IMG/VR virus record: IMGVR_UViG_3300007512_000009
Coordinates: 1 to 64,000 of that record
Reading direction: 5' to 3' (one strand)
Origin: a virus
DNA length: 64,000 bases
Shown piece by piece: positions 3,182 through 30,985 of the stretch. The notes under the pieces were generated by a model. It worked only from the letters and a program-made list of their open reading frames with translations, made no database searches and was not told the DNA's origin. Position numbers and translations under genes: made by a program. Every line of letters starts with the position of its first letter. The stretch's first letter is position 1.

Positions 3182-3616
3182 ATGGGTTTATTTTCTTCAC
3201 CATCTGAAATCGACATACAGTATGAAAACGACACTGATATAAGAGGTACATTTAAAGCAGGTGATACCGACTATAAAGTGTGGGGTAGACACAACTACCT
3301 AATGAGCGGAACTAGTTTGGGTGAGAATGTGTGGGAAATGTTTTTCGCTATGTGTGAAGATGATGACAAAATTTATGGTTTGCATGACACCAAACCAAAC
3401 GGTGCAGGAAATGCAGCCAAGGTGTTTGCAACGGTGATTGAATTCATGAGATATGTAAATAAAAAACATCAACCAAGCGATTTTGTTTTCTCTGCAAAAG
3501 ATGAAAAGCAACAAAGAATATACCTAAAGTTGATTGAAAGATATCAAAAACTTGGGGAAATAAATAACATATCCACCTCTGAAAAAGGAAACATAATTAA
3601 ATTTGAAGTCGTTTAA
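3182..3616 (+). CDS. Hypothetical protein, paralogue family A (no leader)
   Basis: Motif GAGNAAKVFATVIEFMRY...FSAKDEKQQRIYLKLIERY. Confidence 0.75.
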   Translation: MGLFSSPSEIDIQYENDTDIRGTFKAGDTDYKVWGRHNYLMSGTSLGENVWEMFFAMCEDDDKIYGLHDTKPNGAGNAAKVFATVIEFMRYVNKKHQPSDFVFSAKDEKQQRIYLKLIERYQKLGEINNISTSEKGNIIKFEVV

Positions 3617-4805
3617 GCAATACATCTTAACAGAATCCAAAAATACACACCTAGAGCATCTTGAAGATGAAATCTGGAATGCGGGTTCTGCTGGCGCTGA
3701 CAACGCTATCAAATTTTTAAAAGGTGTATCAGACATGCTTACCAGCAATGTCAGTTCGTCCCACAATGTTACGGTTAAGTGGGATGGTGCACCTGCTATT
3801 ATTGCAGGAGTAAACCCAGAAAACAATAAATTCTTTGTTGGAACAAAAAGTGTATTTAATAAGGGTACACCAAAGATTAACTACACTAGTAGGGATGTTG
3901 ATAAAAACCACAGTGGTGACCTTGCTGTTAAGTTGAAAATTGCTCTAAATGAACTACCTAAAATTGGAATAAAGGGTGTGCTTCAGGGTGATTTTATGTT
4001 TGACTCCAGTAGTCTGGGTTCTATGAAAATGGACGGTAAAAGTCATACTACTTTCACACCCAACACCATAACTTACGCAGTGGAAGATGGTAGTCCTCAG
4101 TCTAAAGCAATTAAAGGTGCTAAAATGGGTATAGTATTTCACACTGAATACAAAGGTAAAATACTTGCTGACATGAAAGCATCATTCAGACCGAACATCA
4201 AAAAACTTAAAAAGACCAAAGCGGTATGGTTCAGAGATGCTGATTTTAAAGACGAAAGCGGTGCATCTACTTTAACTACTGGTGAAAAAAAATCTGTCGA
4301 TAAAGCAATCGAGAATGCATCTAGTAAACTAAGTAAGGCATCGGGATTTATTGATAACCTCCAAAGGGACATAACACCTAAAATAAAGACTTATGTAAAC
4401 AGTACGATTAAGAACGGTTTGTCCAATTCCGATTATAAAGGTTTCGTGTCTTATATAACTGACCAGTTTGACACAGCCATTAGTAAACTAAAGACAGACA
4501 GAGGCAAAGAGAATAAATCCAAAAATCGTGATGATGCTCTAAAATATCTTAAGACCAATAAATCGGGTCTTACCTCCCTGTTTGATTTACACAAATCATT
4601 GAGTGTAGCAAAAATGATGTTGATAAAAAAACTCGAAAAAATAGGTGGTATTGGTACATTTATTAGAACGGATGACGGATTCAAAGCAACAGCACCAGAG
4701 GGATTTGTGGCTGTTGATGATACAGGAAAAGCCTTAAAATTAGTGGATAGACTTGAATTTAGTCGGGCCAATTTTACGGTTGCAAAAAACTGGGTTAAGG
4801 GCTAA
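3603..4805 (+). CDS. ATP-dependent ligase-fold nucleotidyltransferase (RNA-ligase-like; resembles the DUF6267-type protein of marine T4-like phages)
   Basis: TTG start, leader MKSFKQYILTE. KNTHLEHLED N-terminus; motif I VKWDG, motif III LQGDF, motif IV EGFVA, motif V LKLVDR. Confidence 0.7.
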   Translation: MKSFKQYILTESKNTHLEHLEDEIWNAGSAGADNAIKFLKGVSDMLTSNVSSSHNVTVKWDGAPAIIAGVNPENNKFFVGTKSVFNKGTPKINYTSRDVDKNHSGDLAVKLKIALNELPKIGIKGVLQGDFMFDSSSLGSMKMDGKSHTTFTPNTITYAVEDGSPQSKAIKGAKMGIVFHTEYKGKILADMKASFRPNIKKLKKTKAVWFRDADFKDESGASTLTTGEKKSVDKAIENASSKLSKASGFIDNLQRDITPKIKTYVNSTIKNGLSNSDYKGFVSYITDQFDTAISKLKTDRGKENKSKNRDDALKYLKTNKSGLTSLFDLHKSLSVAKMMLIKKLEKIGGIGTFIRTDDGFKATAPEGFVAVDDTGKALKLVDRLEFSRANFTVAKNWVKG

Positions 4806-7438: not shown

Positions 7439-9574
7439 ATGGATTCATCAGATTTTATTAAGCAGTATATCCTCAATGAAAAACGTGATAAAGGGATAGT
7501 TTTTACCTTTGGTAGATTCAGTCCACCTCATGTAGGTCATGAATTATTAATTAATAAAGTCTTAAAAGTTGCTAAGCAACATAAGTTTGAACATGGAATT
7601 TATGCGAGTAAATCCCATGACAAAACAAGAAACCCTTTAAAATACAAAGACAAAATAGCATTCATGAAAAAAGCATTCAAGAATGCTAATGTTATTAACG
7701 ACCCTAAATTAATAAATCCGTTTTTTGTTGCAAAAAAACTCAGCGACAACGGATACAAACATGTAATCTTAGTTGTTGGTGGTGATAGAGTAGATGAAAT
7801 GGATAAAAACATTAGACCATACATCAACCACTCAGACCCAAATAAATCTTTCAACTTCGAAACTTTCAAAGTGGTAAGTGCGGGTCGACGTGACCCAGAC
7901 TCAAGTGATGTATCTGGTATGTCTGCATCTAAAATGAGAGCAACGGCAGCCGATGGAGATTTTGAAACTTTCAAATCTGGTGTTCCATCTGGAATGTCTG
8001 ATAAAGATGCACAAAAAATGTATAATACCATAAGGAAAGAAATGGGTATAAGAGAAGAAATAGAATCATTTTTTGATAGCATAGAATTGTTAGGTATCTC
8101 AGAGGAGAAATTAGTAAATCTAGCAAGAGAAAGACTATCAGAAGATGCTTTAAACTACATGAACCTTAACGAACAATCAGAAGATTCAAAACCAACCTTG
8201 GTTGTACTTTCAAAATACAGTGATAAAGACGACCAGAGTAATACAATAGAAAAAGTGGAAAAATCTGCAGATGAAATGGGTATCGATTTTTATTCAATAT
8301 CAGTAGACGATGCTTATATTGTAGACGAAGACATGTCTGACAATGAATTGGTTATCCATAATTATGATGGTAAAAACAATAAAATAACTATCGATACTGA
8401 AAACACGGTATGTTGGCCACGTGGTGGTGTATTAACAAATTTTTCTGGTGTTGGTTTATTAAGTGTGTTACAAGATTCAGACATATTTTGTGTTAATAAA
8501 CTGAGCAATATGGAATTGGCTAGAAACAAATATGCTACTGCGATGCTCCTAGAGAGGGAACAAATCTCATCACCCAGAACAGCACTAGTTTCTAGTGAAG
8601 AAGCAATTGATATAGCATTGGAAAAAATAGGTGGTGAATTCCCTGTCGTATTAAAAACTCTAACTGGTGCTGAGGGTATTGGTGTTTCTATTGTAGAATC
8701 GTATGAATCACTGGTAAGTGTATTACAATCTTTATGGAAATTTGATGCTGAAGTGATTATGCAGGAATATTTTGAGATTGAACACGATATAAGAACAATT
8801 GTTCTAGACAATGATATTATTGCCAGCATAAAAAGAGTAAAAGGCAGTAAAGATTTTAGAACCAATAAATCATTGGGCAATGACACAGAGTTGTACGAAC
8901 TTTCTGAAAAAGAGAAGTCATTAATATTAAAAACAGCAAAAGCATCTGGTTGTTATCTTTGTGGTGTAGACCATATAACTGTCGGTGAAGATGACCACAA
9001 AATCTTAGAGGTCAATGGTTCGCCCGGCAGCGGTGCTGACAAATATACAATTTATTTTGGTGATGAAGAATCGGGTGACGGTAAAATGGTCATTGATTAT
9101 ATAGTTGAATATATCACTGATAAAGACAACTGGAAATATTCTTCTAGAGAAATCGGTATGATAGAGCAAGTTGAAATTGAAGGTATTGGTACTCTTAATG
9201 CTAGAGCAGACACTGGAAACACTGGTCTTAACTCATTACATGCTGAGGATATTACAGTTGAAGATGGAAACGTTACATTTACCACAGAATTCGGTAAAAG
9301 TATAACTCTACCTCTTGATGATACCTCTAAAATAAGAATAGACAATGACCTAGAAAAAAGACCTGTTGTATTGTTTAATATCAAAATGGGTAAGAAGTCC
9401 TATAAAGATGTGCCGTTTACACTAAACGATAGAGATGGTATGGACTACTCGGTATTGCTTGGTCAAGATTTCTTAAAAAGAGCAAATTTTTCTGTTAATG
9501 TCAAAAAGAAATATGAACTGTCAGAGGATGAAAAAAAGATTTTAAATATTAAATTTAACCTTCTTGAGGCATAA
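7439..9574 (+). CDS. Triple fusion: HxGH cytidylyl/nucleotidyltransferase + RimK-type ATP-grasp ligase + RimK-associated retropepsin-like protease
   Basis: GRFSPPHVGHELL and MSASKMR (nucleotidyltransferase); ARNKY, PVVLKTLTGAEGIGV, QEY, DIR, LEVNGSPG (ATP-grasp); ARADTG...RPVV...FTLNDR...VLLG (aspartic protease). Confidence 0.85.
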   Translation: MDSSDFIKQYILNEKRDKGIVFTFGRFSPPHVGHELLINKVLKVAKQHKFEHGIYASKSHDKTRNPLKYKDKIAFMKKAFKNANVINDPKLINPFFVAKKLSDNGYKHVILVVGGDRVDEMDKNIRPYINHSDPNKSFNFETFKVVSAGRRDPDSSDVSGMSASKMRATAADGDFETFKSGVPSGMSDKDAQKMYNTIRKEMGIREEIESFFDSIELLGISEEKLVNLARERLSEDALNYMNLNEQSEDSKPTLVVLSKYSDKDDQSNTIEKVEKSADEMGIDFYSISVDDAYIVDEDMSDNELVIHNYDGKNNKITIDTENTVCWPRGGVLTNFSGVGLLSVLQDSDIFCVNKLSNMELARNKYATAMLLEREQISSPRTALVSSEEAIDIALEKIGGEFPVVLKTLTGAEGIGVSIVESYESLVSVLQSLWKFDAEVIMQEYFEIEHDIRTIVLDNDIIASIKRVKGSKDFRTNKSLGNDTELYELSEKEKSLILKTAKASGCYLCGVDHITVGEDDHKILEVNGSPGSGADKYTIYFGDEESGDGKMVIDYIVEYITDKDNWKYSSREIGMIEQVEIEGIGTLNARADTGNTGLNSLHAEDITVEDGNVTFTTEFGKSITLPLDDTSKIRIDNDLEKRPVVLFNIKMGKKSYKDVPFTLNDRDGMDYSVLLGQDFLKRANFSVNVKKKYELSEDEKKILNIKFNLLEA

Positions 9575-25612: not shown

Positions 25613-25762
25613 CGTTCCTGTGGAAAAGCAGAGGCATTTTTAGACCCTAATACCCTATGCGGGTGTGATGGTGAAGATGATGTAAGATTCATTACCACTT
25701 TACACTGTGGGGCCTCGCAGTGGGAACGATAATTGATGAAAGACCCCTTGTACAAGGGGTCT
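25613..25762. ncRNA. Candidate structured non-coding RNA ending in a strong hairpin
   Basis: CGTTCC(25613)/GGAACG(25723) closing stem, internal CACTG/CAGTG stem, palindromic AGACCCCTTGTACAAGGGGTCT. Confidence 0.35.
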
Positions 25763-25770
25763 TCGTCTTA

Positions 25771-25778
25771 TATAAATA
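25771..25778 (+). promoter_or_regulatory. T4-type late promoter TATAAATA
   Basis: Exact octamer 4 nt before the ATG at 25783. Confidence 0.7.
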
Positions 25779-25782
25779 ATAT

Positions 25783-26049
25783 ATGGATAAAGTGTATGAA
25801 ATTGTTGAGGTTATTTGGGTTGATGCTGAAGAAATCGGTGAAACTGGGTGGAACAACCTAAAATCCCAAATCCGTGATGCTAAGAAACCTTGCCCTAAAA
25901 TGAAATCTGTAGGTTACCTAGTTTATCAAAATGATAAACATATATCTCTATTATCCACCGTGGGAAAAGATTTAGCATCTACTTTAGAAAAAATACCCTC
26001 AGGGTTTATAATTGAAATTAACAAGTTAACCAAGGTTGAAAAAAAATAA
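25783..26049 (+). CDS. Small phage hypothetical protein
   Basis: VEVIWVDA...GW...SVGYLV...KIPSGFI. Confidence 0.75.
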   Translation: MDKVYEIVEVIWVDAEEIGETGWNNLKSQIRDAKKPCPKMKSVGYLVYQNDKHISLLSTVGKDLASTLEKIPSGFIIEINKLTKVEKK

Positions 26050-26052
26050 AAA

Positions 26053-26343
26053 ATGATTTACGAATATAAATGCCGTGAATGTGAAGAAATATGGGAAGAA
26101 ATTCTTCCTATGTCGAAGTTCGACAAGCCCATGAAAAATAAATGTCCACACTGCGATGCTAAAAAAGGTAGCGTTTACAGATACGTAAGTACTGCACCCG
26201 CAATGCAAATGGATATGCAAATGGACATCAAAAAACCACATAATATGGGTGGATTCCAAGATGCAATGCAACGAATGGTGGAGTCGCCTGGCGTAAAAGG
26301 TACACCAGAGGCAGAACTACTTAAAGGTAAACATCTGAGTTGA
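26053..26343 (+). CDS. FmdB-like zinc-ribbon protein
   Basis: MIYEYKCREC...CPHC. Confidence 0.8.
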   Translation: MIYEYKCRECEEIWEEILPMSKFDKPMKNKCPHCDAKKGSVYRYVSTAPAMQMDMQMDIKKPHNMGGFQDAMQRMVESPGVKGTPEAELLKGKHLS

Positions 26344-26368
26344 CAACCGAAAGCCCGTAGTGTATAAT
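26340..26368 (+). promoter_or_regulatory. sigma70-type early promoter for purZ-kinase
   Basis: TTGACA-17-TATAAT with TG extension, 37 nt upstream of purZ. Confidence 0.9.
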
Positions 26369-26405
26369 AATATTACAAACGAACTCTAATTAGAAAAGGA
26401 AGTAT

Positions 26406-27497
26406 ATGATGATTGAAAATGGTAAGGTAAACTTTTTGATTGATGGACAATGGGGAAGCACTGGTAAAGGTAAACTAGCAGGTTATCTTTATAGTAAACA
26501 TCCAGAACTGACAATGGCAATAAGTGATAATATGCCTAATGCAGGACATACTTTTACAAGAGATGGAAAGAACTTCATTTTTAAAGCACTACCTACTGGT
26601 GTTCTATTTGACGGAGTGACATCGCTAATCGGACCACAATCAGTTATTGGTGAAGAACAATTTCAATACGAAATGGAAATGGTAAAAAATGAAATTGGTC
26701 ATTACCCGAAAATCATAATTCACCCGATGGCATGCGTTGTCACAGCAAGTGATAAAGATGCGGAAGCAGAAATCGTCAGCAAAATGGCAAGCACTGGACA
26801 AGGTTCGTGTGCAGCCACTGTTAAGAAAATGTGGAGAGCGGGCGAAGCAAACCTTGCTAAAAACAGCAAAATCTTAGAACCTTTCGTGGGTGATACACAT
26901 GAATTTTTACAAGAAAATTTAAAGAATGGTGGAACAGCACTTTCAGAAGGAAGTCAAGGTTTTGACCTTTCAATGAATTGCGGTCATTCTTATCCCCATA
27001 CAACATCTCGTGATTGTCTTATCGGTCGAATGATGGACAACGCAGGTTGTTCGGTCAAATCAGTTGGTAGTATCATTGCTTGTCTTCGAACTCTGCCTAT
27101 TCGTGTAGGTAGCACAGAAAATACCAGTGGCCCCTACTACGATGACCAAGTTGAACTAAATTGGGGTGATGTTTCAAATATGTGTGGGTATGATGTTGAA
27201 GAAAAAACAACAGTGACTCAAAGAATCCGTCGTGTGTTTACAATGTCGGAACAGCAAACACGCAAATTCTGTGAGTACGTGCGACCAGACTATGCATTTT
27301 TGAATTTCGTTAATTACTATGATGAACCAATGGACAGACTAGATGCAATAAATGATGTAGCAAGCATTTTGAATGAATACGGATGTGATTTAACACTACT
27401 TGGTACTGGTGCTGAACTCGATGCAATGGAAATGACTGACAATGCAACCATATCTACACAACATACAGAATTGTTAAAAAATACTCAATGTTTATGA
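26406..27497 (+). CDS. purZ: PurZ-type N6-succino-2-amino-2'-deoxyadenylate synthase (PurA paralogue)
   Basis: IDGQWGSTGKGK (Ser in place of the PurA catalytic Asp), PNAGHT, EGSQG, TTSRDC, GPYYDDQVELNW, TTVTQRIRRVF, FLNFVNY in place of TKLD. Confidence 0.85.
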   Translation: MMIENGKVNFLIDGQWGSTGKGKLAGYLYSKHPELTMAISDNMPNAGHTFTRDGKNFIFKALPTGVLFDGVTSLIGPQSVIGEEQFQYEMEMVKNEIGHYPKIIIHPMACVVTASDKDAEAEIVSKMASTGQGSCAATVKKMWRAGEANLAKNSKILEPFVGDTHEFLQENLKNGGTALSEGSQGFDLSMNCGHSYPHTTSRDCLIGRMMDNAGCSVKSVGSIIACLRTLPIRVGSTENTSGPYYDDQVELNWGDVSNMCGYDVEEKTTVTQRIRRVFTMSEQQTRKFCEYVRPDYAFLNFVNYYDEPMDRLDAINDVASILNEYGCDLTLLGTGAELDAMEMTDNATISTQHTELLKNTQCL

Positions 27498-28078
27498 GTA
27501 ATAACACAATAATTCATTGCGTAATAGGGCAAGCAGGCTCTGGTAAATCAACTTTTATACTCCAAAATTTTCCATCGGAAGAACACATTTTTTACAACGT
27601 GGGTTCTATCCTAAGAAAGATGTTCGGTGCCAGCATTGGCAAGAAACAAGATGGTAATAAAAACACGTGGGATTTTGCAGACCCTTTAGTTTATAACGTG
27701 TTTGACCATTGTCATCATATATCAAGAACTCATAATGTACCAATGGTTTCTGATGGGTTTCCGAGAAATATTAATCAACTGGACTATATAGACAAAGTGC
27801 TTAGAGTCGCTGAATATGGTAAAGTTGAAATAAACTTTCATTTATTAGATATCAGTGAAAAAGAGCAGGTACGTAGAATATTGGAAAGAAATGGTCAACT
27901 TGACCAGTACCATATAGAAAGGATTGCTGAATCACGACATAACTTTGAATGCGTTATAGAACGTCTTGAAGGTATCCTTCTTGGTGAAACCGAAAACCTT
28001 GTCTACAACTTAAACTGGTATAAACAAGAAAACGGTTCATTTCAAAAAATTAGTACAGTTAAGCATTCTAGAATATAA
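27488..28078 (+). CDS. Adenylate-kinase-like nucleoside monophosphate kinase
   Basis: P-loop GQAGSGKST, NVGSILR, DGFPRNINQ, RRILER. Overlaps the end of purZ by 10 nt. Confidence 0.85.
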   Translation: MFMSNNTIIHCVIGQAGSGKSTFILQNFPSEEHIFYNVGSILRKMFGASIGKKQDGNKNTWDFADPLVYNVFDHCHHISRTHNVPMVSDGFPRNINQLDYIDKVLRVAEYGKVEINFHLLDISEKEQVRRILERNGQLDQYHIERIAESRHNFECVIERLEGILLGETENLVYNLNWYKQENGSFQKISTVKHSRI

Positions 28079-28081
28079 ATA
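28074..28081 (+). promoter_or_regulatory. T4-type late promoter TATAAATA
   Basis: Exact octamer upstream of 28089. Confidence 0.7.
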
Positions 28082-28088
28082 ATACGTT

Positions 28089-28646
28089 ATGGCAGATTTT
28101 AGTATTAACATCCCAGACGAATATTTAGATGGTTCTGAAGACTTCGGTTTCACTACTATAGATTCTAATGAATTTGAACAAGCCGAGGCAGTAGAAAGAG
28201 AAATTACTGCTGATGTCGCTGAAGAATTAACATCGGGTCTTGTATCAAAAATAACAGGTCTTGAAGGAAAGATTAATGCGGTTCTTTTAAGGCTTAATGA
28301 TTCGACTCAAGACGATGACGATTTGATTCAATCTATTGATATGGTACGTATTGAAGAAAAAATTGATAAAATCCTCTCTATGGAAAACACGGAGATGATG
28401 TCTGCTCTAAACCAACAAGGAGAGAACATCCGTGCAGTTATTGATGAAGTAGAGGAAAGGAAAAACTTATTAGACGACCAATATAAAAAGAAATTATCAG
28501 AGGTCGAAAAAACGGTTATGCCTCTATTAATCAATCTAACTAAAAACCCAGAACGAGAGTATTTAAAGTGGCCCGACCGAGCGTCAAAGGTAAGGGGTTA
28601 TATACAAAGAGTATTAACACTCACAAGAGGAGATGAAAGTACTTGA
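28089..28646 (+). CDS. Conserved T4-like coiled-coil hypothetical protein
   Basis: DFGFT N-terminus and PLLINLTKNPEREYLKWPDR C-terminus. Confidence 0.75.
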   Translation: MADFSINIPDEYLDGSEDFGFTTIDSNEFEQAEAVEREITADVAEELTSGLVSKITGLEGKINAVLLRLNDSTQDDDDLIQSIDMVRIEEKIDKILSMENTEMMSALNQQGENIRAVIDEVEERKNLLDDQYKKKLSEVEKTVMPLLINLTKNPEREYLKWPDRASKVRGYIQRVLTLTRGDEST

Positions 28647-28688
28647 CAAAATTTGTGACAGTGAACTTTTTAGGATTATTTTTATATT

Positions 28689-29372
28689 ATGAAAACAAAA
28701 CAAAACTTTAACCATATCGGTCTAGCCGACTCGATTATCGAATTAGATACCACATATCGTAACAATAAACGATGGTATAAAATACCAAATGGGGAACTCT
28801 ACCCCAGTGTCACAACCGTTACTGGTTGGGGAAAAAGAGCATTTTTTGCTGAGTGGCGAAGAAAAAACCCAGAAGAATCAAAATTATCGCTATCAAGAGG
28901 TACTGCTTTTCACTCTCTAGTTGAAAACTACCTTAACAACGACGAAGATTTTTTAAAAGGTCAATCTTCCGATTGTATGTTTTTGTTTGAGCAATTTAAA
29001 TCATTACTGGATGGAAAAATTAGTAATATCCGTGCACAAGAAGTGCCATTGTATAGTAATACATTAAGGTTAGCCGGCAGGGTAGACTGTGTTGCAGATT
29101 ATGATGGTACTTTAAGCATTATCGACTTTAAAACTAGTAAAGCAGAGAAAAAAGAAGAATGGGTTGAAAGTTATTTCGCTCAAGCAACTGCTTATGCTAT
29201 TATGTGGAAAGAAATGACTGGTGAAACAATAGACCAAATTGTTATTTTGATATCATCTATGGACGGTTCAAGTCAAGAATTTGTTAAAAAACCTGTTAAG
29301 TACGTACCCGTCTTAAAAAAGATGATAGATGGGTATTGGAAAGACAACATACCACACGATTTTAGTTATTAA
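28689..29372 (+). CDS. PD-(D/E)xK (RecB/Cas4-like) exonuclease
   Basis: YPSVTTV, RGTAFH, AGRVDC, IIDFKTS, QATAYA. Confidence 0.9.
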   Translation: MKTKQNFNHIGLADSIIELDTTYRNNKRWYKIPNGELYPSVTTVTGWGKRAFFAEWRRKNPEESKLSLSRGTAFHSLVENYLNNDEDFLKGQSSDCMFLFEQFKSLLDGKISNIRAQEVPLYSNTLRLAGRVDCVADYDGTLSIIDFKTSKAEKKEEWVESYFAQATAYAIMWKEMTGETIDQIVILISSMDGSSQEFVKKPVKYVPVLKKMIDGYWKDNIPHDFSY

Positions 29373-30985
29373 GGTGATGTTTTCCTCATATAGGTTACAT
29401 CTATTCTTGGCCTCCAATCTATTATATTTGCATCTTTAGAAAAGTATTTGCATTGATTAATCCAATATACAAAATAAGTTGGTAATTCATCGGCTGGAAC
29501 ATTCGGCCAATCAAACTCGGCAGTAAGGCCATTGGTATCGTAAGGATAATATAACATCAGTCTGCAATCGCCTGTCCTGTTAGTCATAGCATCAGTCACC
29601 AAATCAGTAACGTTAATATGATATTGCGTTCCTTGCTCTACATCAAATAATTGAGAATATGTTGCTCCATTGGCGATTGGGAACTCTAAATCTGATGTGT
29701 CTTTGACATCAGTTGTTCCAACTGAACTACCTCCACTTGCTCCCCAATAACTGGCACTTCCAGCATGTCCGCCAGTAAAGTCCGTTACATCAACTATGTT
29801 CACGCCTGATGCACTGGCCAGTGCATCACTAACATTACCATCATTGCCTGCATTATCCATTGTAAGTGTAATTTTAGTACCACTTGAACCTTGTTTTGCA
29901 GTAATACCCAAGTCGTGGCCTGATTGACCATTTCCCTCCGAGGCATATATGAAGCGACCAGCGACCACCCCATTAATAGCATTGATAATAAAATCTGCCA
30001 CCATGTCATCGTTTTCAGATGCGTCAAGGGTGCCAATTGTGATTGTGTTAGGAGCGGCCGTTGCTTGATTGATATCATCTTTGTCTTCATCAAGTAAAAT
30101 TGTAACAGCCGTGCCACCTAAACCACCCGCAGAGGTTGGTATCGATATCGTAAACGAAGCGTCCGCATCGCTGGTGGTGTAGCCAGTTGTATCAATCGCA
30201 TCCACTGCAGTTGCAAGTCTATCTCCACCTTTATAAGACCACCATCCTGTATTTTCCATTGAACCTGCTGTATAACCGTTTGATGCACCGTCTGCACTAG
30301 ACCCTCTAGTAACTCTGGCAACTCTTATAGTAACATCTCCTTGAGCAAGATGTGATGGTACAACTGGCGGATGGTTTCCATCAGTCTGTTGGAATATCCC
30401 ACTAGCATCAGCATCTCGGGCATGTGTTTGTACTGAATCTACCGTTAATACTAATGTTGCTCGAACGACAGTATCACCAGTAGTAATACCATCAATAGTA
30501 ACCCCACCCGATGGGAATGGTGAGGGATTCCCCCAATCGGAAGATTTGAAATACATTGTGCCTCTTTTTGCGGGTGTTGATAACCATCCGTCCCTCCAAA
30601 CACCAACACCACCACCGGCTAGAGAATCTTCATGGTTGAAACCATAAGAAAAATCTGTAGACTGCACGTTGTTGTGACTGCCAGTCCAGATATGAGTAAA
30701 GGCTGAACCTATTGTAAAATAACCGTCGGAACTTGACCCAGCGTATAAATGATGTATGTCTTGGTCGTACAGGTACGTTGCACTGGTAGTACCTGTACCG
30801 CCCAAACCAGAACCATGGTCTGTATATGTTGCACCAAGGTCACCCCTGACATCGTATAGTGTCATGTCTTCTGTTGGATACCATCTTGATAAAAGTAAGG
30901 TCGGGTTGGGCGTATCAATATCAGTGAATCCTATATCAGCATCTTGATGTCTTAAGGCTGTTAATCTATGTCTTGCAAGTGTCAT
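29369..30985 (-). CDS. Putative virion-associated protein, Gly/Thr/Ser-rich, with beta-sandwich (DNRLRE-like) termini
   Basis: 538 aa. C-terminal YFSKD...RPRIDVTY; central insert ending FTGG. Confidence 0.6.
   Translation of the reverse strand: MTLARHRLTALRHQDADIGFTDIDTPNPTLLLSRWYPTEDMTLYDVRGDLGATYTDHGSGLGGTGTTSATYLYDQDIHHLYAGSSSDGYFTIGSAFTHIWTGSHNNVQSTDFSYGFNHEDSLAGGGVGVWRDGWLSTPAKRGTMYFKSSDWGNPSPFPSGGVTIDGITTGDTVVRATLVLTVDSVQTHARDADASGIFQQTDGNHPPVVPSHLAQGDVTIRVARVTRGSSADGASNGYTAGSMENTGWWSYKGGDRLATAVDAIDTTGYTTSDADASFTISIPTSAGGLGGTAVTILLDEDKDDINQATAAPNTITIGTLDASENDDMVADFIINAINGVVAGRFIYASEGNGQSGHDLGITAKQGSSGTKITLTMDNAGNDGNVSDALASASGVNIVDVTDFTGGHAGSASYWGASGGSSVGTTDVKDTSDLEFPIANGATYSQLFDVEQGTQYHINVTDLVTDAMTNRTGDCRLMLYYPYDTNGLTAEFDWPNVPADELPTYFVYWINQCKYFSKDANIIDWRPRIDVTYMRKTSP

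What the first reader, a model, noticed from the sequence alone, without database searches (positions are those of the whole stretch)
27488..28078. Adenylate-kinase-like gene coupled to purZ: candidate dedicated dZMP kinase
Seen: an NMP-kinase ORF (GQAGSGKST, DGFPRNINQ) overlaps the purZ stop by 10 nt, under the same promoter. Known: in characterised Z pathways dZMP is phosphorylated by host guanylate kinase and NDK. Inference: this phage supplies its own AK-fold kinase for dZMP (or for the dGMP/dAMP balance), an accessory step I do not recognise from described Z clusters.
Basis: partly seen in the sequence, partly recalled or inferred. Interest (0 to 1): 0.75.

Follow-up and report, generated by a model that had tools for sequence, protein, structure and literature searches.

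The report
Phage kinase gene paired with PurZ
A marine T4-like phage carries, joined to its PurZ gene (first step towards the DNA base 2-aminoadenine, Z), a divergent adenylate-kinase-like gene whose relatives are found almost only right after PurZ in several unrelated phage types, so it is probably a phage-supplied Z-nucleotide kinase, a step so far credited to the host.

Summary

- All 8 informative family representatives lie directly after PurZ.
- 27 of 37 informative IMG/VR PurZ loci carry the kinase there, on at least four phage backbones.
- In three loci the kinase is fused to a dUTPase_2 (all-alpha NTP pyrophosphatase) domain.
- 41 related T4-like loci lack both genes.

Kinase-linked PurZ forms its own clade, apart from phiVC8 and S-2L PurZ. 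Those genomes have DatZ and no kinase. The eight genomes sampled from the kinase-linked clade lack DatZ and carry dUTPase-type genes instead.

This phage also encodes a true PurB. It therefore covers dGMP to dZDP itself if the kinase takes dZMP.

The dZMP substrate is inferred, not shown. The inference rests on the invariant AK-type Gln (adenine-type base reader) and on pathway logic.

No paper in the searched library describes a kinase in Z clusters. This scan had already noted PurZ-kinase pairs and a kinase-pyrophosphatase fusion on other DNA.

Verdict: new variant of a known kind. Interest 0.65.

The parts
26340..26368 (+). Sigma-70-type promoter-like site TTGACA-17-TATAAT, 37 nt upstream of purZ
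   Evidence: 12 of 12 consensus matches, the best site in 25700-29500. No + strand terminator-like site lies between purZ and the kinase. Pattern match only.
26406..27497 (+). purZ (N6-succino-2-amino-2'-deoxyadenylate synthase), 363 aa
   Evidence: PDB phiVC8 PurZ E 3.6e-52 and S-2L PurZ 7e-31, with the GSTGKG motif. phrog_1211 at 2.8e-60. NCBIfam amino_Aden_PurZ is the best hit, at 208.9 bits, below its cut-off of 300. It lies in the kinase-linked PurZ clade.
27488..28078 (+). Divergent adenylate-kinase-fold NMP kinase, 196 aa (194 aa from the more likely start ATG 27494, which overlaps the purZ stop as ATGA). Candidate dZMP kinase.
28089..28646 (+). Co-oriented 185-aa acidic, helix-rich ORF of no known family. 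It follows the kinase only in the T4-like group and is not part of the conserved PurZ-kinase pair.
   Evidence: No Pfam or PHROG family. A 184-186-aa ORF holds the same position in T4-like relatives. It is absent after the kinase in other backbones.

Best explanation
The ORF encodes an active, fast-evolving member of the adenylate-kinase fold. It has become a dedicated component of a second type of 2-aminoadenine (Z) gene module.

Proposed route in this phage:
1. PurZ converts dGMP plus aspartate into the succinyl intermediate.
2. The phage's own PurB (outside the window) releases dZMP.
3. This kinase transfers a phosphate from ATP, or possibly dATP, to dZMP to give dZDP.
4. Host nucleoside-diphosphate kinase makes dZTP for the phage family-B polymerase.

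Shown here: gene structure, AK fold, retained catalytic residues, purifying selection, near-exclusive and deeply conserved adjacency to PurZ, and the fusion to a dUTPase_2 domain.

Inferred: that the acceptor is dZMP, that the two genes are co-transcribed and translationally coupled, and that the phage DNA contains Z.
For: (1) Fold and chemistry.
- AF2 model pLDDT 89.6.
- P-loop Lys18, Arg41, Asp87, Arg91, Arg132 and Arg143 align with the catalytic residues of AK.
- Gln95, four residues after the Arg of DGFPR, is invariant in every family member. From my own knowledge, this position is Gln in AMP-specific AKs, where it reads adenine N1/N6, and Asn in UMP/CMP kinases. An adenine-type base, A or Z, is therefore expected.
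- The two other base-contacting segments of AK (TGD, and G-x-L-V-x-D) are replaced, the latter often by an N-P/K-N loop.

(2) Linkage.
- 8 of 8 informative family representatives from a 1.8-billion-protein library lie directly after PurZ (with 46, 39, 99 with 101, 100).
- 27 of 37 informative IMG/VR PurZ loci carry a strong match there.
- The backbones differ: T4-like PolB/gp32 phages; UDG-PolA/DnaB phages of 40-90 kb; a 262-kb phage; and a terminase-adjacent context.

(3) Joint presence or absence. 41 related T4-like loci lack both genes.

(4) Fusion. In L035, L036 and L037 the kinase and a dUTPase_2 domain form one ORF directly after PurZ.

(5) Clade pattern.
- The kinase-linked PurZ clade is separate from the phiVC8/S-2L clade.
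- Eight sampled genomes of that clade lack DatZ. Seven carry dUTPase-family genes, and the eighth (G020) has the fused dUTPase_2 domain instead. DatZ-bearing genomes lack the kinase.

(6) Pathway completeness. This phage encodes a true PurB, with TIGR00928 above its cut-off. It has no T4 gp1-type, guanylate-kinase or NDK gene in the 126 kb held. PurB co-occurs with PurZ plus kinase in 3 of 3 T4-like genomes, against 0 of 3 PurZ-less ones.

(7) Co-divergence of the two genes: Mantel rho 0.44, p 0.001. Purifying selection.
Against: - No assay, and no ligand-bound model. The substrate is inferred.
- The same Gln would also fit AMP or dAMP.
- The family lacks the equivalent of the AK LID arginine (E. 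coli R156 / AK1 R138) and the following DD. Activity could therefore be weak or altered.
- The kinase evolves about twice as fast as PurZ (median identity 22% against 43%). One complete phage of the same PurZ clade does without it: in L030 the slot holds a dATP/dGTP diphosphohydrolase. The kinase is thus dispensable in some settings.
- Published work credits host GMP kinase with this step (bioRxiv 10.1101/2025.10.22.683976), so a phage copy is not strictly required.
- The association may go back to a single origin of a two-gene cassette. Many of the linked loci are therefore not independent events.
- The genome record is about 70% complete.
Confidence: 0.55

Rival explanations
1. It is an ordinary phage adenylate kinase (AMP/dAMP + ATP giving two diphosphates). 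It would boost adenine-nucleotide turnover during infection, and its position beside PurZ would have no pathway meaning.
For: AK fold, and the AK-type Gln four residues after DGFPR. The nearest relatives outside the family are canonical ADK domains (P0026, P0040, P0050). JGI's automatic name is 'adenylate kinase family enzyme'.
Against: - The family is found almost only directly after PurZ (8 of 8 informative representatives).
- It is absent from 41 related T4-like loci that lack PurZ and from the 50,697 deposited phage records.
- It scores far below the AK family thresholds (Pfam 21.7 against 26.8; NCBIfam adk 32.5 against 168).
- Its base-contacting segments are remodelled.
- Making dADP would work against adenine exclusion.
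- Hosts already carry an essential Adk (general knowledge).
Confidence: 0.15
2. It is a Z-pathway enzyme, but its main role is to drain the adenine deoxynucleotide pool. It might use dATP or dADP as phosphate donor, or disproportionate dADP. With PurZ, which can spend dATP, and the Dut-like hydrolase, it would replace the missing DatZ.
For: Genomes of the kinase-linked clade lack DatZ, whereas DatZ-bearing genomes lack the kinase. The kinase lies next to, or is fused with, dNTP hydrolase-type domains. PurZ uses ATP and dATP as donors according to the introduction of bioRxiv 10.1101/2025.10.22.683976.
Against: Host Adk and NDK already interconvert dAMP, dADP and dATP, so the gain is unclear. 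Nothing in the sequence speaks to donor preference. This reading is compatible with the main explanation, since dATP could be the donor for dZMP phosphorylation.
Confidence: 0.12
3. It acts on guanine nucleotides. It might run dGDP back to dGMP, or buffer dGMP, to feed PurZ with substrate.
For: PurZ needs dGMP. This T4-like phage has no MazZ, DUF550 or MazG homologue in the 126 kb held.
Against: The invariant Gln is the adenine-reading residue of AKs. There is no similarity to guanylate kinase beyond the P-loop. Many family members sit beside Dut-like or dUTPase_2 domains, and published DutZ enzymes of the dUTPase family make dGMP from dGTP (PMC12884076).
Confidence: 0.08
4. It is not a nucleotide-monophosphate kinase. 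It might be a polynucleotide 5'-kinase-like or small-molecule kinase, or a non-catalytic nucleotide-binding partner of PurZ.
For: Foldseek also lists bacterial polynucleotide kinases and PFK-2 kinase domains at similar E-values. One LID arginine is missing.
Confidence: 0.05

Closest known systems
Short-LID adenylate kinases (AK1 type; e.g. PDB 5YCB, 2C95, 8PVW) and UMP/CMP kinases
   Different: About 17-20% identity. It scores below the Pfam and NCBIfam thresholds. The TGD and G-x-L-V-x-D base-contact motifs are replaced. The LID Arg-x-Asp-Asp is missing. The T4-like group has an extra C-terminal beta-hairpin. It is encoded only beside PurZ.
Host guanylate kinase in the published Z pathway (PurZ, host PurB, host GMP kinase, NDK)
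   Same: It would carry out the same step, dZMP to dZDP, as stated in the introduction of bioRxiv 10.1101/2025.10.22.683976.
   Different: It belongs to a different NMP-kinase family, with no Guanylate_kin match. It is phage-encoded and gene-coupled to PurZ.
T4 gp1 deoxynucleoside monophosphate kinase
   Same: The concept is the same: a phage-encoded kinase that brings a non-standard dNMP (hydroxymethyl-dCMP) to the diphosphate. gp1 does not act on dAMP (annotation of NC_000866).
   Different: No detectable sequence relation. No gp1 homologue occurs in the 126 kb held.
Accessory genes of known Z clusters: MazZ, DatZ, DUF550/DUF5664, DutZ and DmtZ (PMC8342488, PMC12884076)
   Same: It occupies the slot directly after PurZ that MazZ, DatZ or DUF550 fill in S-2L, phiVC8, K300 and BUCT555. 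In other lineages it is followed by, or fused to, dUTPase-type domains.
   Different: Those genes are all hydrolases or transferases that shape the dATP/dGTP pools. None is a kinase, and the word 'kinase' does not occur in the text of PMC12884076 or PMC8342488.

Membership tests
Adenylate kinase family (Pfam ADK PF00406; NCBIfam adk TIGR01351) | Score above the curated family threshold | tested here: not met
   Pfam ADK 21.7 bits against a cut-off of 26.8. NCBIfam adk 32.5 bits against 168. Some relatives pass the Pfam cut-off (L025, 30.6 bits).
Adenylate kinase family (Pfam ADK PF00406; NCBIfam adk TIGR01351) | Three-domain NMP-kinase fold (CORE, NMP-binding, LID) | tested here: met
Adenylate kinase family (Pfam ADK PF00406; NCBIfam adk TIGR01351) | P-loop GxxGxGK(S/T); Arg of the NMP-binding helix; DGFPR; Gln at +4 that reads the adenine of AMP | tested here: met
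   GQAGSGKST, G37/R41 and D87-G-F-P-R91...Q95 are invariant or nearly so across 21-31 family members.
Adenylate kinase family (Pfam ADK PF00406; NCBIfam adk TIGR01351) | Full set of LID arginines and the Asp-Asp pair (E. coli R123, R156, D158, D159, R167) | tested here: not met
   R132 and R143 align with R123 and R167. No counterpart of R156-x-D-D exists: the LID is reduced to 'RNGQLDQY'.
Adenylate kinase family (Pfam ADK PF00406; NCBIfam adk TIGR01351) | AMP + ATP giving 2 ADP activity | not testable with these tools
   Needs an enzyme assay.
Z-genome (PurZ) gene cluster component | Encoded next to a genuine PurZ (Ser in the GSTGKG motif, PurZ-type best hits) | tested here: met
Z-genome (PurZ) gene cluster component | Linkage to PurZ conserved across divergent phages and lost together with PurZ | tested here: met
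Z-genome (PurZ) gene cluster component | Demonstrated role in dZTP synthesis or adenine exclusion | not testable with these tools
   Needs biochemistry or in vivo Z-incorporation tests.
Guanylate kinase (the enzyme published for dZMP phosphorylation) | Match to Guanylate_kin (PF00625) beyond the P-loop | tested here: not met
   No Pfam hit at E up to 1. The phrog_1815 'guanylate kinase' match covers residues 9-23 only, E 0.0078. No PF00625 match in the genome.
T4 gp1-type dNMP kinase | Sequence homology to T4 gp1 | tested here: not met
   phmmer of T4 gp1 against all ORFs of the 126-kb record gave no hit at E up to 1.

The most novel reading that the evidence does not exclude
A whole, uncultured clade of PurZ phages makes Z-DNA with a different helper set from the textbook PurZ-MazZ-DatZ triad. 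The clade includes PolB-using marine T4-like myoviruses. Its helper set is PurZ, a Z-selective AK-derived dZMP kinase and a Dut-type dNTPase, plus a phage PurB in the large phages. In this reading the kinase is a fourth phage-encoded, base-specific step. It prefers dZMP over dAMP and so acts as an extra adenine-exclusion filter.
Probability: 0.35. Interest if true: 0.8.

Novelty: new variant of a known kind. Interest (0 to 1): 0.65.

Why it matters
Z-DNA biosynthesis is described as PurZ plus pool-shaping hydrolases, with phosphorylation of dZMP left to host guanylate kinase.

- A dedicated phage kinase would add a new enzymatic component to this pathway.
- It would define a second, widespread architecture of Z modules.
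- It would extend probable Z genomes to marine T4-like, PolB-using phages.
- It would provide a compact enzyme for the in vitro or in vivo production of dZTP and Z-DNA that synthetic-biology groups already attempt with purZ-mazZ-datZ constructs.
- It would be a natural example of re-tuning the adenylate-kinase base pocket for a 2-amino purine.

Tried and rejected
- DNA search of the 3.4-kb region against deposited phages: no match.
- tblastn of the window kinase and of a distant member (P0031) against 50,697 phage records: one weak hit in a 635-kb uncultured phage and none.
- The search for related loci with the kinase alignment failed because the alignment has no conserved 7-10-column stretch. 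PurZ was used as the anchor instead.
This is weak evidence, because word-sharing candidates were capped.
- P0026 (1626 aa, best hit outside the family) was checked as a possible fusion. It is five canonical ADK domains and is irrelevant.
- First attempt at clustering loci by flanking genes merged almost everything because of shadow ORFs. It was redone with stricter filters.
- Sequencing runs: no RNA holder listed. Only marine DNA metagenomes hold the stretch, so nothing can be said about expression.
- Complex prediction was not used. I do not claim that PurZ and the kinase bind, and PurB acts between them.
- Contexts of P0024 and P0033 were uninformative because the contigs end at or just before the kinase.

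Full report
**1. The observation**

The window is the first 64 kb of a 126,210-bp IMG/VR virus record. The record is about 70% complete and has 36.5% G+C. It has T4-like gene content: gp32, a family-B polymerase, and Mre11/SbcC-like genes.

ORF 27488-28078 (+) encodes 196 aa and carries GQAGSGKST and DGFPRNINQ. It overlaps the TGA of the upstream 363-aa ORF (26406-27497). The overlap is 10 nt from the first ATG, or 4 nt (ATGA) from the second ATG at 27494. Gene callers use the second start (P0001, 194 aa). Relatives mostly show the 4-nt overlap. Residue numbers below refer to the 194-aa form.

The upstream gene is a genuine PurZ.
- Its best solved relatives are phiVC8 PurZ (E 3.6e-52) and S-2L PurZ (7e-31). 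These score well ahead of archaeal PurA and of PurZ0.
- It has GSTGKG where PurA has GDEGKG.
- It matches phrog_1211 at 2.8e-60. Its best NCBIfam hit is amino_Aden_PurZ.

A 12/12 TTGACA-17-TATAAT site lies at 26340-26368. No + strand terminator-like site separates the two genes.

**2. What the protein is**

Sequence profiles place it only weakly in the P-loop NMP-kinase world.
- Pfam AAA_17, AAA_33 and ADK all score below threshold.
- NCBIfam adk scores 32.5 bits against a cut-off of 168.
- The best solved sequence relative is an adenylate kinase at E 0.0018.

The family keeps the following residues:
- P-loop Lys18.
- Gly37 and Arg41 of the NMP-binding helix.
- Asp87-Gly-Phe-Pro-Arg91.
- Gln95, which is invariant in every member examined.
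- Arg128 and Arg132.
- Arg143.

From my own knowledge of the AK family, the residue four positions after the Arg of DGFPR is Gln in AMP-specific AKs, where it reads adenine N1/N6. It is Asn in UMP/CMP kinases. This points to an adenine-type base, A or Z, as acceptor.

Two things differ from AKs.
- The two other base-contacting segments (TGD, and G-x-L-V-x-D) are replaced. The second is often replaced by an N-P/K-N loop.
- The LID lacks the Arg-x-Asp-Asp element.

The gene is under purifying selection. dN/dS is 0.084 against L011 and 0.06-0.17 in other T4-like pairs.

**3. Linkage to PurZ**

*Family size.* An exhaustive HMMER pass over 1.84 billion representative proteins found only 31 hits at E up to 0.001. 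A profile search of 5.8 billion proteins found about 43 clusters. All are metagenomic, and the only name given is 'adenylate kinase family enzyme'.

*Context of the representatives.* I looked up the genomic context of ten. Eight were informative, and all eight lie directly downstream of a PurZ-type gene: P0021, P0022, P0028, P0029, P0030, P0031, P0032 and P0047 (with 46, 39, 100, 99 with 101). Two contigs were too short to tell.

*The converse test.* I fetched 40 PurZ loci from IMG/VR and searched them with a kinase profile.

| Result | Number of loci |
|---|---|
| Uninformative (contig ends at PurZ) | 3 |
| Strong kinase match directly after PurZ (E 1e-13 to 1e-73) | 27 |
| Weak match | 3 |
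| No match | 7 |

*Backbones.* Flanking-gene clustering and Pfam scans show at least four:
- T4-like phages.
- Phages of 40-90 kb with UDG-PolA ... PurZ-kinase-dUTPase-DnaB.
- A 262-kb phage with RNase HII-PurZ-kinase ... GyrB.
- A context with the terminase two genes away.

*Fusion.* In L035, L036 and L037 the kinase is fused in one ORF to a dUTPase_2 domain. That domain belongs, from my knowledge, to the all-alpha NTP pyrophosphatase superfamily that also includes MazG.

*Joint absence.* In 41 T4-like loci related through the neighbouring PD-(D/E)XK exonuclease (40-58% identity), neither PurZ nor the kinase is present. Within this backbone the two genes come and go together.

**4. Two kinds of Z module**

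A PurZ tree of 44 sequences, made with the quick IQ-TREE setting, splits at its midpoint into two groups.

- *First group:* phiVC8, Vibrio phage K300, BUCT555, S-2L and metagenomic relatives. None has a strong kinase match.
- *Second group:* 31 rows. Of these, 25 have the kinase, 3 have the fused form, 2 are cut by contig ends, and 1 has none (L030). An inner 26-row clade has SH-aLRT support of 99.

In L030 the slot after PurZ holds a PF18909 dATP/dGTP diphosphohydrolase.

Whole-record searches confirm the split.
- phiVC8, S-2L, K300, BUCT555 and MaF61 have no kinase match. Their post-PurZ slot holds MazZ, DatZ or DUF550.
- DatZ (PF12917) is present in phiVC8, S-2L and one metagenomic genome of the first group. 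It is absent from all eight sampled genomes of the second group that carry the kinase. Four of these eight are 93-100% complete.
- Seven of those eight genomes have a dUTPase-family gene. The eighth, G020, has the fused dUTPase_2 domain instead.

PurZ and kinase divergences are correlated (Mantel rho 0.44, p 0.001). The kinase evolves about twice as fast (median identity 22% against 43%). The simplest history is a single origin of a PurZ-kinase cassette that then moved between phage backbones. The many linked loci are therefore not independent origins. Retention of adjacency down to about 37% PurZ identity and about 15-25% kinase identity is still strong evidence for functional coupling.

**5. 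The rest of the pathway in this phage**

The 126-kb record has no DatZ (HD_3 or YfbR-like), DUF550, MazG, dUTPase_2, NDK or guanylate-kinase match. It has no T4 gp1 homologue.

It does encode a true adenylosuccinate lyase PurB. TIGR00928 scores 340.6 bits against a cut-off of 326.2, and both Lyase_1 and ADSL_C domains are present. The gene lies at G000 81372-82775, between the Mre11/SbcD-like and SbcC-like genes.

PurB is also present in the two other large PurZ-plus-kinase T4-like contigs (48% identity). It is absent from three PurZ-less T4-like contigs of 102-128 kb. It also occurs in the 262-kb PurZ-plus-kinase phage, but not in complete small phages of the second group.

A Dut-family gene lies next to the polymerase gene, at G000 105206-105817.

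If the kinase takes dZMP, the phage itself encodes every base-specific step from dGMP to dZDP.

**6. Mechanism and rivals**

*Best reading (0.55).* The protein is an AK-derived kinase dedicated to the Z pathway, and it phosphorylates dZMP.

*Rivals.*
- An ordinary AMP/dAMP kinase (0.15). This is disfavoured by the near-exclusive PurZ linkage, the sub-threshold scores and the remodelled pocket.
- A dATP/dADP-draining phosphotransferase that stands in for DatZ (0.12). This partly overlaps with the main reading.
- A guanine-nucleotide kinase feeding PurZ (0.08). This is disfavoured by the invariant Gln.
- Not an NMP kinase at all (0.05).

*What counts against the main reading.*
- There is no assay.
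- One LID arginine is missing.
- The kinase evolves fast.
- One complete phage of the same clade lacks it.
- Host GMP kinase is reported to suffice in the characterised systems.

**7. Comparison with what is known**

Searches of the held literature found no paper that places a kinase in a Z cluster. The terms used were PurZ with dZMP and kinase, with adenylate kinase, and with guanylate kinase; PurZ0 with kinase; and aminoadenine with monophosphate kinase.

- The two most recent surveys list DatZ, MazZ, DUF550, DUF5664, DutZ, DmtZ/NDT and DpoZ only (PMC12884076; bioRxiv 10.1101/2025.10.22.683976).
- The original Science papers are not in the library and could not be checked.
- Deposited phage genomes hold no member of this kinase family.

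This scan has met the theme before on other DNA. Earlier notes describe a kinase-pyrophosphatase fusion beside PurZ (e1-3413255), a PurZ0-like gene with an AK-like partner (e1-5356845), and large myoviruses with PurZ plus PurB (e1-1939373, e1-5733645). I re-derived the fusion and the absence from deposited phages independently. I could not reproduce the claim of kinase-PurZ fusions in cellular genomes with this family.

**8. Verdict**

The substrate remains inferred. I class the finding as a new variant of a known kind: an AK-fold NMP kinase recruited into a second architecture of the Z-DNA module. Interest 0.65.

Noticed in passing
G000 81372-82775 (outside the window; L105:1396-2799): The phage encodes a PurB adenylosuccinate lyase (TIGR00928 above cut-off; Lyase_1 + ADSL_C), inserted between the Mre11/SbcD-like and SbcC-like genes. 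It co-occurs with PurZ plus kinase in 3 of 3 T4-like genomes and is absent from 3 of 3 PurZ-less ones.
   Followed up: partly
G000 105206-105817 and the next ORF (L092:1246-1857, 1854-2201): A 203-aa dUTPase-family protein with an N-terminal extension lies directly upstream of the family-B DNA polymerase. It is followed by a 115-aa ORF with a sub-threshold DUF1599 ('nucleotide modification associated domain 1') match. It could be a DutZ-like dATP/dGTP hydrolase rather than a plain dUTPase.
   Followed up: partly
L035:7376-8359, L036:7137-8690, L037:7125-8141: Single ORFs fuse the PurZ-linked kinase to a dUTPase_2 (PF08761) domain directly after PurZ, in 32-45-kb phages.
   Followed up: partly
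L030:7175-8072: This is the one kinase-less member of the kinase-linked PurZ clade. The slot after PurZ holds a PF18909 dATP/dGTP diphosphohydrolase followed by a dUTPase, an apparent swap of helper genes.
   Followed up: no
window 26053-26343: A small FmdB-like Zn-ribbon protein (Zn_ribbon_8) lies upstream of PurZ in all T4-like relatives, either directly or with one small ORF between. It may be a regulator of the early operon.
   Followed up: no
window 28689-29372: A PD-(D/E)XK exonuclease (phrog_298) is conserved in T4-like relatives with and without PurZ. It was used here as the backbone anchor. S-2L also has a PD-(D/E)XK nuclease near its PurZ.
   Followed up: partly
window 7439-9574 and 3603-4805: A 711-aa protein has an N-terminal cytidyltransferase-like domain (phrog_3041/395). 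A 400-aa protein matches phrog_455. Both lie in the block of leader-bearing genes noted by other first-stage notes.
   Followed up: no
L009:2173-3661 and L009:7350-7844: In the PolA-type phages the PurZ-kinase-dUTPase block lies among MT-A70 methyltransferase, ThyX and NADAR-domain genes, and the polymerase carries a fused UDG domain.
   Followed up: no
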